53,052 nt of DNA from the NCBI GenBank assembly GCA_963778905.1, contig CAVZWH010000007.1:1-53052 (forward strand). The letters are read 5' to 3'. Under the pieces are notes generated by a model. It was not told the origin of the DNA, did no database searches, and saw only the letters and a list, made by a program, of their open reading frames with translations. This document shows positions 51,262-51,656 of the stretch, one piece after another (within the stretch, counting starts at the first letter, position 1; the number at the start of each line of letters is the position of its first letter). Source of the stretch: Candidatus Staskawiczbacteria bacterium. GTDB taxonomy: Bacteria > Patescibacteriota > Minisyncoccia > Minisyncoccales > Staskawiczbacteraceae. The translations under genes were made by a program, and so were the position numbers.

Positions 51262-51341
51262 AAATATATTTTATCACAAATGTAATAAAAGAGCAGGAGG
51301 CCGTAGCTTCCTGCCATGGATTGGTCGGTTGAGCATCTTGC

Positions 51342-51551
51342 TCAACTTTTTGGGGGCTGCGATGGCGCGCTCTTGGAGGGCGGCTCCTCGTGGCGATGAA
51401 TCGCGTCAAACACTTCCCGCCTGTGCACCGGCACTTTCTTGGGCGCTTCCACGCCGAGGCGAACCTTGTCCCCCCGAATCTCAATCACCACGATTGTGAT
51501 GTCGTCGTTGATGACAATACTCTCGTTCTTCTTGCGGGACAACACTAGCAT
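51342..51551 (-). CDS. csrA: Carbon storage regulator CsrA
   Basis: [57 protein letters not shown] SD; markedly GC-rich. Confidence 0.95.
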   Translation of the reverse strand: [69 protein letters not shown]

Positions 51552-51656
51552 GACTGGGTCTCCTTATCGCGGGAGGAAAATTGGCTCCAACCAAGCAGTC
51601 CTTGCCTAGTTTGAAAAGAGCCAATTTTATTATAACAAAAAATAAAAAATAGTCAA
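51552..51656 (-). promoter_or_regulatory. csrA promoter and GGA-hairpin leader
   Basis: TTGACT-N16-TATAAT (51629-51656); outer stem AAAATTGGCTC/GAGCCAATTTT; inner CTAGGCA-AGGAC-TGCTTGG. Confidence 0.6.

What the first reader, a model, noticed from the sequence alone, without database searches (positions are those of the whole stretch)
51290..51656. Foreign-looking csrA cassette with an autoregulatory-type leader
Seen: a GC-rich csrA inserted between metG and tatD with its own promoter and a leader hairpin presenting AGGAC in the loop (GCAAGGACTGC), plus two more GGAs including the SD. From recall, not a search: [31 protein letters not shown] is very close to Planctomycetota CsrA. No flagellar or fliW context. 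Inference: an acquired global translational regulator that governs the other imported cassettes or mimics a host regulator.
Basis: partly seen in the sequence, partly recalled or inferred. Interest (0 to 1): 0.75.

Follow-up and report, generated by a model that had tools for sequence, protein, structure and literature searches.

The report
Old, persistently GC-rich csrA gene unit
This is a genuine gene for the RNA-binding regulator CsrA in a tiny AT-rich (CPR, Staskawiczbacteria-like) bacterium; it looks planctomycete-like and foreign, but it has sat at this spot across a whole bacterial family and has stayed GC-rich, so it is an ordinary regulator with an odd, unexplained composition.

Summary
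Window 51342-51551 (-) encodes a 69-aa CsrA (Pfam 89 bits, NCBIfam equivalog). The stretch is 57% GC in a 36.5% GC genome. It has a near-consensus promoter, a 71-nt leader whose 5' hairpin shows AGGAC in its loop, two more GGAs (one in the SD AAGGAG) and a terminator. There is no FliW. The closest named relatives are Planctomycetota CsrAs (about 95% identical in the core).

The "recently imported cassette" reading does not hold. The order metG-csrA-tatD recurs in 58 of 79 genomes (13 of 16 genera) of the same GTDB family and in two genomes of a second family. Genomes without csrA have metG abutting tatD. Four-fold sites of csrA are as scrambled between relatives as those of tatD (0.335 vs 0.352 identity). 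Yet csrA GC3 exceeds tatD GC3 in 47 of 47 genomes (0.59 vs 0.31). So the gene is an old, vertically kept resident, lost several times, and its GC-richness is maintained, not a relic.

The most likely function is a monocistronic translational repressor that also binds its own leader; this is inferred. One other GC-rich mini-gene in the window (17272-17640) shares the leader design and is a candidate target.

It is a new member of a known kind, of moderate interest.

The parts
51629..51656 (-). Sigma-70-type promoter of csrA: TTGACT (51656-51651), 16-nt spacer, TG-extended TATAAT (51634-51629). The predicted transcript start is near 51622.
   Evidence: 11 of 12 matches, TG before the -10. A comparable promoter is present in the family: 45 of 52 leaders score at least 10 of 12.
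51552..51622 (-). 5' leader of about 71 nt. SL1 (51623-51582) is a two-tier hairpin with inner stem CUAGGCA/UGCUUGG and apical loop AGGAC (GGA at 51601-51599). GGA2 is at 51588-51586. A C-rich tract follows, then the SD AAGGAG at 51565-51560 (GGA3 at 51563-51561), 8 nt before the ATG.
   Evidence: Fold at -24.7 kcal/mol, z -2.1. In the family, the SL1 stem varies in sequence while pairing is kept, and GGA is in the loop in 25 of 54 leaders against 3.9 expected. The perfect 11-nt inverted repeat I8 is the outer stem.
51342..51551 (-). csrA coding sequence, 69 aa: a 55-aa CsrA core plus a Pro/Ser-rich 14-aa tail. GC 0.57, GC3 0.75-0.76, above every ORF of at least 90 aa in the genome (csrA itself is 69 aa).
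   Evidence: (aligns 1-56 with solved CsrA/RsmE chains; R44 and the VHR-E motif are kept).
51442..51455 (-). Hairpin inside the coding sequence at codons 33-37: GGCG-UGGAAG-CGCC, with GGA (51450-51448) in the hexaloop. The synonymous third positions of Gly33 and Ala36 pair with each other.
   Evidence: Covariation: 14 of 18 paired in family type A (7.6 expected; 3 of 2000 shuffles reach this). In Planctomycetota-type loci 49 of 79 are paired (33.5 expected; 0 of 2000). This is the top pair of a systematic scan and the only one with z of at least 3 in both sets.
51283..51344 (-). 3' UTR: a small hairpin over the stop codon (51344-51330), then a terminator hairpin GCAGGAAGCUACGGCCUCCUGC (51315-51292) with a U-run (51291-51283).
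   Evidence: -21.3 kcal/mol, z -3.2. A GGCAGGA...CCUGCC-U-run terminator recurs after csrA in many family members. The simple terminator scan missed it, probably because of its interrupted stem.
50446..51261 (-). tatD (TatD-family hydrolase), the conserved downstream neighbour. A TG-extended -10 (TGATAAAAT) ends 6 nt before its ATG, so its mRNA is probably leaderless.
   Evidence: Pfam PF01026 at 271 bits. Synteny. The leaderless reading is inferred from the sequence.
51680..53050 (-). metG (methionyl-tRNA synthetase; the 5' end runs off the window), the conserved upstream neighbour.
   Evidence: Pfam PF09334 at 334 bits. Synteny.
17272..17640 (+). Candidate CsrA target, a possible part of the regulon and not of the cassette. 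It is a GC-rich mini-gene (71-aa ORF at 17354-17569) whose 82-nt leader has the same module as the csrA leader: CUCUUUUUUU, a 9-bp stem, and a UUGGA loop. It carries 6 GGAs in all, an SD AGGAG and its own terminator.
   Evidence: Only csrA and this gene fit the module in the whole genome. The leader is conserved in the 3 family genomes that have the ORF.

Best explanation
**What it is.** The locus is a self-contained, monocistronic csrA transcription unit: promoter, 71-nt leader, 69-codon gene, terminator. It sits in a Staskawiczbacteria-like member of the Patescibacteria (CPR).

**History.**
- The protein is a canonical CsrA/RsmA RNA-binding regulator of the paralogue type that dominates in Planctomycetota.
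- The gene was already between metG and tatD in the ancestor of the whole GTDB family, probably as part of a small tandem array of csrA paralogues.
- It has since been inherited vertically, with several clean losses.
- It has kept G/C-ending codons against the host's AT bias.

**How it works (inferred from what is known of the CsrA family).**
- CsrA dimers bind GGA motifs presented in hairpin loops and in Shine-Dalgarno regions, and so repress translation.
- Here the csrA leader offers three such sites: the loop of the 5' hairpin, the 3' foot of that hairpin, and the SD. A fourth lies in a covarying hairpin inside the coding sequence.
- So the protein most likely limits its own translation. 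In this genome few genes have an SD (2.5-10% of ORFs, by how the start is chosen). It would therefore act mainly on the small set of SD-led mRNAs.
- With no FliW, any antagonist would have to be an RNA or an mRNA leader.

**Composition.** The persistent GC-richness is most likely held by selection at the RNA level (mRNA structure). This is only partly supported.
For: **Shown**
- It is a CsrA: Pfam, NCBIfam equivalogs and solved CsrA chains.
- There is a single copy in the genome.
- The promoter, leader fold and terminator are as described.
- csrA is present in 58 of 79 family genomes and 13 of 16 genera.
- Where the fetched stretch reaches that far, the order is metG-csrA-tatD (metG up to 2.7 kb upstream in a few); three genomes carry two tandem copies.
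- In csrA-less genomes metG abuts tatD.
- The NCBI-named Staskawiczbacteria CsrA is on record on many contigs (24 read); all four independent JGI and ENA places examined show the same order.
- Two genomes of a second family share the csrA-tatD linkage.
- On a tatD+metG+leuS tree, csrA is present in basal lineages. Its absence clusters in one well-supported clade plus scattered tips, about 9 changes in all.
- All-pairs identity at four-fold sites is 0.335 for csrA and 0.352 for tatD, against about 0.27 at saturation. GC3 is 0.59 against 0.31, and csrA is higher in 47 of 47 genomes.
- The family's leaders share one design, which differs from that of planctomycete csrA leaders.
- GGA sits in the 5'-hairpin loop in 25 of 54 leaders against 3.9 expected.
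- There is a covarying hairpin inside the coding sequence.
- Family csrA cores fold better than their own synonymous permutations: mean z -1.50 against -0.28 for tatD, Mann-Whitney p 8e-5.

**RNA**
- A 244-nt peat metatranscriptome contig covers 51355-51598 with 2 mismatches and none of the neighbours.
- csrA is listed among highly expressed genes of ultra-small groundwater prokaryotes (PMC9938205).

**Other**
- No FliW.
- SD use is rare genome-wide and enriched in GC-rich ORFs.
Against: - Binding and autoregulation are inferred; nothing here tests them.
- About half of the family's leaders lack GGA in the 5'-hairpin loop (they have AUGAC, ACGAC, AAGAC or AGGC loops). So that hairpin may serve another purpose.
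- Sequestration of the SD by the C-rich tract is no stronger than composition predicts: mean unpaired probability 0.28 against 0.30, p 0.16.
- The window's own coding sequence shows no excess folding: z about 0 for the core and +1.2 for the whole gene. RNAalifold finds no large shared structure in the CDS. RNA-structure selection therefore explains at most part of the GC excess.
- The CsrA tree is unresolved. Three paralogue types (A, B, C) occupy the same site in different genomes, including two type-B genomes in the window's own genus. Some replacement by transfer is therefore not excluded.
- The host-gene tree rests on three genes, and two of them are aminoacyl-tRNA synthetases.
Confidence: 0.72

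Rival explanations
1. Recent horizontal acquisition. A planctomycete csrA cassette was inserted between metG and tatD in this genome or its very close kin, and its GC-richness is un-ameliorated donor composition.
For: - There is a 20-point GC excess.
- The best named hits are Thermoguttaceae, Pirellulales and Planctomycetaceae CsrAs, about 95% identical in the core.
- csrA GC3 (0.59-0.76) is close to the planctomycete value of 0.64.
Against: - The same site is occupied in 13 of 16 genera of the family.
- Synonymous sites are saturated between relatives, just as in tatD.
- The best DNA identity of the core to any planctomycete locus is only 83%, the same as to family members.
- The promoter, leader and terminator are family-specific and unlike those of planctomycete loci.
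- No flanking repeats or mobility genes were found.
Confidence: 0.04
2. Hot-spot with repeated allelic replacement. The metG-tatD site is old, but the csrA sequence in it has been swapped repeatedly by incoming GC-rich alleles from Planctomycetota or GC-richer Patescibacteria. That would keep GC high and mix the paralogue types.
For: - Types A, B and C occur at the same site. Two genomes of the window's own genus carry type B inside a clade that otherwise lacks csrA.
- The same paralogue types occur, often in tandem, in GC-richer Patescibacteria families and in planctomycete loci.
- The family's type-A proteins are interleaved with planctomycete ones on the tree.
- The window's core is no closer in DNA to its relatives than to planctomycetes.
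Against: - Tandem arrays in three family genomes make differential loss of old paralogues a simpler account.
- The genus g40 variant clusters by host lineage: 12 changes against 25.6 expected.
- The leader and terminator co-vary with host lineage.
- No mechanism is evident. DNA identity of about 80% is too low for homologous replacement, and there are no recombinase genes or repeats.
- The tree has too few columns to count as evidence for transfer.
Confidence: 0.12
3. The 5' hairpin is not a CsrA site. It would be a generic 5'-end element of this lineage's SD-led units, for example protection from 5'-end-dependent RNases or the site of another factor. The GGA in its loop would then be incidental.
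For: - Only 25 of 54 family leaders have GGA in the loop. The others carry conserved AUGAC, ACGAC or AAGAC loops.
- The hairpin starts at or within about 2 nt of the predicted transcript start in nearly all leaders.
Against: - GGA in the loop is six-fold over expectation: 25 against 3.9.
- The window's leader has GGA in a pentaloop plus two further GGAs at spacings that suit a CsrA dimer (13 and 25 nt).
- The only other gene in the genome with this module has 6 GGAs.
Confidence: 0.2
4. Assembly artefact. A GC-rich contaminant fragment was mis-joined into an AT-rich contig.
For: There are sharp composition borders.
Against: - Both borders lie inside one contig, between genes of the host.
- The same arrangement occurs in 58 relatives and on independent JGI and ENA contigs.
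- An independent peat DNA contig spans the csrA-metG junction, 51415-51692.
Confidence: 0.01

Closest known systems
CsrA/RsmA family translational regulators (E. coli CsrA 1Y00, Yersinia 2BTI, P. fluorescens RsmE 2JPP)
   Same: - Pfam and NCBIfam equivalog membership.
- Residues 1-56 align with solved CsrA chains.
- The residues that I recall as critical for RNA binding in E. coli CsrA are kept: L2, L4, R6, V40, V42, R44 and position 47.
- The gene's own leader carries GGA sites, including one in the SD. From my own knowledge, the E. coli csrA leader and the Pseudomonas rsmA/rsmF leaders do too.
   Different: - The host is a 0.74-Mb CPR genome without glycogen, flagellar, BarA-UvrY or CsrB/C context.
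- The C-terminal tail is Pro/Ser-rich and variable.
- GC3 is 0.75 in a genome where GC3 averages 0.33.
- No antagonist is known.
Planctomycetota CsrA paralogues (Thermoguttaceae, Pirellulales, Planctomycetaceae MAGs)
   Same: - The 55-aa core is about 95% identical to the planctomycete consensus [55 protein letters not shown].
- GC3 is similar.
- Both share the covarying hairpin at codons 32-37.
- Types A and B occur in tandem in one planctomycete locus; all three types occur in GC-richer Patescibacteria loci.
   Different: - The planctomycete loci have another promoter and leader (cTTGACTTC...GTATCGTACAATGA, SD gcgaaGGAacg) and no metG/tatD context.
- There csrA matches, or lies below, the GC of its genome.
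FliW-CsrA-flagellin partner switch (B. subtilis; Geobacillus 5DMB)
   Same: The CsrA core aligns with the Geobacillus CsrA of the FliW complex.
   Different: No FliW is present in the genome, there is no flagellar context, and the tail is not conserved.
Compositionally atypical acquired genes and the amelioration model (Lawrence and Ochman; from my own knowledge)
   Same: A GC-rich gene sits in an AT-rich genome, with its closest relatives in a GC-rich phylum.
   Different: Amelioration has not happened despite saturated synonymous divergence across a whole family.

Membership tests
CsrA/RsmA (PF02599; TIGR00202) | Sequence matches the family models above their curated cut-offs | tested here: met
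   PF02599 at 89.1 bits (cut-off 27), covering 1-52 of 53 model positions. NF002469 at 87.4 (cut-off 73) and TIGR00202 at 84.7 (cut-off 70.1).
CsrA/RsmA (PF02599; TIGR00202) | RNA-binding residues of the two conserved regions (N-terminal LxLxRR/K and VHR-E-I/V, with R44) | tested here: met
   Alignments to 1VPZ, 2BTI and 5DMB show MLvLsRk... and ...vpVHRrEvf, with R44 kept. Which residues matter is from my own knowledge of E. coli alanine scans.
CsrA/RsmA (PF02599; TIGR00202) | Homodimeric interleaved beta-sandwich fold | not tested
   No structure was predicted. Sequence identity to solved chains over residues 1-56 makes the fold very likely.
CsrA/RsmA (PF02599; TIGR00202) | Binds GGA motifs in RNA and represses translation | not testable with these tools
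   Only candidate sites are seen.
Autoregulated csrA leader (E. coli csrA / Pseudomonas rsmA type) | Two or more GGA sites in the gene's own leader, one overlapping the SD and one in a hairpin loop | tested here: met
   GGA at -50 (pentaloop), -37 and -12 (SD). In the family, loop GGA occurs in 25 of 54 leaders against 3.9 expected. Function was not tested.
FliW-CsrA partner-switch module | FliW gene present, usually adjacent, with flagellin | tested here: not met
   PF02623 gives no match at E of 0.1 or less in the whole genome.
Csr/Rsm sponge-RNA circuit (CsrB/CsrC, RsmX/Y/Z) | A small RNA with many GGA hairpins | tested here: inconclusive
   No Rfam family other than one tRNA is found in the window, and none in 14 GC-rich islands of the genome. 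The rest of the genome was not scanned with Rfam. The leader at 17272-17353 has 6 GGAs.
Recently acquired genomic islet | Absent from close relatives at the same site | tested here: not met
   Present at the same site in 58 of 79 family genomes.
Recently acquired genomic islet | Atypical composition | tested here: met
   GC 0.57 against 0.365; GC3 0.75 against 0.33.
Recently acquired genomic islet | Mobility genes, target-site duplication or terminal repeats | tested here: not met
   Only A/T-run matches and the leader's own stem were found. The neighbours are metG and tatD.

The most novel reading that the evidence does not exclude
csrA is the regulator of a second, selectively maintained expression regime in these AT-rich, largely SD-less Patescibacteria.

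On this reading a small class of GC-rich, SD-led, self-terminated single-gene units is kept in a GC-rich 'codon dialect' by selection on RNA properties. The class would include csrA itself, the 71-aa gene at 17272-17640, and perhaps the DksA-like gene. These units would be translationally gated by CsrA through a shared 5' leader module (CUCUUU, stem, GGA loop).

The planctomycete-like sequence would reflect an ancient transfer of a csrA paralogue array, possibly through a physical episymbiont-host association.
Probability: 0.12. Interest if true: 0.75.

Novelty: new member of a known kind. Interest (0 to 1): 0.4.

Why it matters
CsrA is a well-known global regulator, so the gene itself is ordinary.

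Two points are of some value.
- First, a strong compositional anomaly is not evidence of recent transfer here. A gene can stay 20-30 GC3 points above its genome across a whole family while its synonymous sites turn over. That bears on how 'foreign islands' are called in CPR genomes, and it points to selection on synonymous sites or mRNA structure.
- Second, in a genome where few genes (2.5-10% of ORFs) have a Shine-Dalgarno sequence, a GGA/SD-binding repressor can act only on a small, recognisable set of mRNAs. That makes the regulon of an uncultivated CPR bacterium predictable and testable in E. coli.

I found no paper describing the origin, conserved site or composition of csrA in Patescibacteria. 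The one paper found says only that it is highly expressed.

Tried and rejected
- **Covariation of the leader hairpin with the tools.** The MAFFT alignment of 25 leaders (A1) gave no consensus structure in RNAalifold. I replaced it with a loop-anchored count in Python. That count is partly circular for stem positions 1-5. Positions 6-7 are paired in 49 of 52 and 45 of 52 leaders, against about 25-29 when shuffled.
- **SD sequestration by the C-rich tract.** It is not above composition. I dropped it as a claimed feature.
- **A large conserved structure in the csrA CDS.** RNAalifold found none. Only the small hairpin at codons 32-37 stands.
- **CsrA phylogeny to decide donor and direction.** With 58 columns the tree has 1 starred branch of 167, so it is unresolved. 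I used it only to define the paralogue types.
- **GGA density as a sponge-RNA detector.** Coding regions rich in Gly GGA codons swamp it.
- **The 71-aa gene as a conserved csrA partner.** It is present in only 3 of 79 family genomes, so it is not a conserved partner.
- **The GC-rich island at 33861-34330 as a structured RNA.** There is no Rfam match even at E of 1 or less.
- **High-GC 'Patescibacteria' and 'Peribacter' contigs.** I first suspected these contigs carrying planctomycete-like csrA were mis-binned. The phylum-wide sample shows several GC-richer Patescibacteria families really do carry these csrA types.

Full report
**1. What is there**

- The ORF at 51342..51551 on the minus strand encodes 69 aa. 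It matches Pfam CsrA over 52 of 53 model positions at 89 bits.
- It also matches two NCBIfam CsrA equivalogs above their cut-offs.
- Residues 1-56 align with solved CsrA/RsmE chains, and the N-terminal LxLxR(K) and VHR-E motifs are kept.
- It is the only csrA in the 741-kb, 31-contig genome, which is 93% complete.
- The 300-nt window that holds it is 56.7% GC, between neighbours of 27-35%. The genome is 36.5% GC, and only 1.4% of its 300-nt windows reach 50%.
- csrA GC3 is 0.75. That is above every ORF of at least 90 aa in the genome, where the mean is 0.33 and the maximum 0.69.
- The neighbours are tatD (downstream) and metG (upstream), with leuS beyond tatD.

**2. Anatomy of the unit**

- Promoter: TTGACT, 16 nt, TG-n-TATAAT (51656-51629), 11 of 12 matches. 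It lies in AT-rich, native-looking sequence.
- The predicted transcript starts near 51622.
- The 71-nt leader folds (-24.7 kcal/mol, z -2.1) into a two-tier 5' hairpin:
  - outer stem GGCUC/GAGCC (the perfect inverted repeat I8);
  - inner stem CUAGGCA/UGCUUGG;
  - apical pentaloop AGGAC (GGA at 51601-51599).
- A second GGA sits at the 3' foot of the hairpin (51588-51586). The third is in the SD AAGGAG (51565-51560), 8 nt before the ATG.
- After the stop codon come a small hairpin and then a terminator hairpin with a U-run (51315-51283; z -3.2).
The unit is monocistronic by design.
- tatD has a TG-extended -10 ending 6 nt before its ATG, so it is probably leaderless (my inference).

**3. Not an artefact**

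- Where the fetched stretch reaches that far, the 58 related genomes show the same gene order, with metG up to 2.7 kb upstream in a few.
- The NCBI-named 'Candidatus Staskawiczbacteria' CsrA (P0104) is on record on many contigs. All four independent JGI and ENA places examined show metG-csrA-tatD.
- A 278-nt contig from an unrelated peat DNA run spans csrA into metG (51415-51692, 5 mismatches).
- A 244-nt contig from a peat metatranscriptome covers 51355-51598 with 2 mismatches and nothing of the neighbours. This is weak but direct support for transcription.
- A groundwater study lists csrA among the highly expressed genes of ultra-small prokaryotes (PMC9938205).

**4. Relatives of the protein**

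- In the 5.8-billion-protein search, every named top hit but one is from Planctomycetota (Thermoguttaceae, Pirellulales, Planctomycetaceae). The exception is the Staskawiczbacteria entry.
- The planctomycete core [55 protein letters not shown] differs from ours at 3 of 55 positions.
- The species-genome scan gives the same picture.

**5. Not a recent insertion**

- csrA is present in 58 of 79 genomes and 13 of 16 genera of the window's GTDB family. In every locus long enough to show it, the order is metG-csrA-tatD.
- Three genomes have two csrA copies in tandem there.
- In several of the csrA-less genomes metG and tatD abut, about 15 nt apart; in others of them a longer gap remains.
- Elsewhere in the order, csrA is found in one other family (f27) and a few singletons. 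Two of the f27 genomes share the csrA-tatD linkage. Four have a low-GC type-B csrA at another site, with GC3 of 0.32-0.39.
- On a tatD+metG+leuS tree, csrA is present in the basal lineages. Absences form one well-supported clade of the window's genus plus scattered tips, about 9 changes in all.
- Four-fold sites at conserved residues are as scrambled in csrA as in tatD. All-pairs identity is 0.335 against 0.352, with about 0.27 expected at saturation.
- The window's csrA core is 83% identical in DNA to its best family relative and 83% to its best planctomycete locus. Neither figure suggests recency.
- The family shares its own promoter, leader and terminator design. That design is unlike the conserved planctomycete csrA upstream region.
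- No repeats or mobility genes flank the unit.
The likely ultimate origin from a planctomycete-like donor is not contradicted.

**6. The odd part**

- Despite that age, csrA GC3 exceeds tatD GC3 in 47 of 47 family genomes. The means are 0.59 and 0.31, and the csrA value is close to the planctomycete 0.64.
- Composition at four-fold sites is G+C 0.64 in csrA against 0.41 in tatD.
- The protein does not require such codons, since low-GC csrA exists in f27.
- Two results point to RNA-level selection.
  - (a) Family csrA cores fold more stably than permutations of their own synonymous codons: mean z -1.50, n=58, p 2e-9. tatD segments of equal length give -0.28, and the Mann-Whitney p is 8e-5.
  - (b) The synonymous third positions of Gly33 and Ala36 pair with each other.
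    - In family type A, 14 of 18 are paired against 7.6 expected.
    - In planctomycete-type loci, 49 of 79 are paired against 33.5 expected (0 of 2000 shuffles), with C-G, G-C and A-T all common.
    - It is the top pair of a systematic scan of the external set, and the only pair with z of at least 3 in both sets.
    - The flanking pair, Leu32:Pro37, also covaries in the external set.
    - In the window this hairpin is GGCG-UGGAAG-CGCC (51455-51442), so it shows one more GGA in a loop.
- The case is incomplete. The window's own CDS shows no excess folding (z about 0). No large shared structure exists. One 4-5-bp hairpin cannot explain a gene-wide bias. I record this as unexplained.

**7. 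Paralogues and the wider picture**

- The family's csrA genes fall into types: A, the genus-g40 variant of A, B and C.
- In the sample, 38 of 401 Patescibacteria genomes have csrA. These are concentrated in a few GC-richer families, often as tandem arrays of the same types.
- Two planctomycete or planctomycete-like loci carry A plus B or C as well.
- The 58-column tree is unresolved. It supports the type groupings (81-93 SH-aLRT) and interleaves family type A with planctomycete sequences.
- The simplest account is an old transfer of a paralogue array followed by differential loss. Some later replacement cannot be excluded. For example, two type-B genomes in the window's genus sit inside an otherwise csrA-less clade.

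**8. How it most likely works**

- Shown: the gene, its signals and the candidate sites.
- Inferred from established CsrA biology (my own knowledge): the dimer binds two GGA sites 10-60 nt apart, typically one in a hairpin loop and one in the SD, and blocks initiation. csrA and rsmA leaders are themselves targets in E. coli and Pseudomonas.
- The window's leader fits this, with GGAs at -50 (loop), -37 and -12 (SD).
- Across the family, the 5' hairpin sits 33-53 nt (64 in one leader) before the ATG. Its stem sequence changes while pairing is kept.
- Its loop holds GGA in 25 of 54 leaders, against 3.9 expected from dinucleotide shuffles. The other half carry AUGAC, ACGAC or AAGAC loops, so the hairpin may have a second role.
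- SD sequestration is not supported.
- FliW is absent, and no known sponge-RNA family was found in the window or in the GC-rich islands.
- Only 2.5-10% of 716 ORFs have an SD of 5 nt or more, but 21-38% of the GC3-rich ORFs do. CsrA's possible targets are therefore few.
- One stands out, in this same window. The GC-rich 71-aa gene at 17354-17569 has a leader built on the same module (CUCUUUUUUU, a 9-bp stem, a UUGGA loop) with six GGAs in all. That leader is conserved in the three family genomes that have the gene. No other locus in the genome fits the module.

**9. Verdict**

- It is a new member of a known kind: a CsrA regulator with an autoregulatory-type leader.
- The interesting residue is the maintained GC-richness and the shared leader module.
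- Notes from earlier agents of this scan on other genomes describe the same phenomena. I treated them as leads and tested the family-wide synteny, the saturation and the composition myself.

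Noticed in passing
window 17272-17640 (+): A GC-rich mini-cassette: a 71-aa ORF (17354-17569, GC 0.56, no family hit). Its 82-nt leader shares the csrA leader module and carries 6 GGAs, two of them in hairpin loops, plus its own terminator. The ORF is found in only 3 of 79 family genomes, with the leader conserved in all three.
   Followed up: partly
window 33861-34330: A 58% GC island between lepB and pth. It has no convincing ORF (the 88-aa ORF has no Pfam hit) and no Rfam match even at E of 1 or less. It could be an unrecognised structured RNA or another GC-rich unit.
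   Followed up: partly
window 16793-17227 (+): A 144-aa ORF (GC 0.46, GC3 0.53) with no Pfam hit, directly upstream of the 71-aa gene. The two may be co-transcribed, because no clear promoter precedes the 71-aa gene's leader.
   Followed up: no
genome contig C12:23528-24086 (locus L195): A GC-rich (0.54, GC3 0.68) 185-aa DksA/TraR-type zinc-finger protein. This is another small regulator that is compositionally out of line with the genome.
   Followed up: partly
whole genome G000: Shine-Dalgarno motifs are rare: 2.5-10% of 716 ORFs have one of 5 nt or more. They are enriched in ORFs with GC3 of at least 0.4 (21-38%). About 36 islands of at least 50% GC are scattered through the 741 kb.
   Followed up: partly
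window 51262-51290 (-), upstream of tatD: tatD has a TG-extended -10 (TGATAAAAT) ending 6 nt before its ATG, and the first about 25 nt of the gene are nearly invariant across the family. This suggests a leaderless mRNA.
   Followed up: no
loci L155 (G079), L162 (G074), L172 (G098): Two csrA paralogues sit in tandem at the metG-tatD site. GC-richer Patescibacteria families (L217, L219, L221, L226, L232) carry two or three in tandem.
   Followed up: partly
locus L069 (CAYIMJ010000094.1, labelled Candidatus Saccharibacteria): This 1.6-kb contig carries the family's csrA leader, terminator and tatD start. It therefore belongs to this Staskawiczbacteria-like family and is probably mis-binned or mislabelled.
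   Followed up: partly
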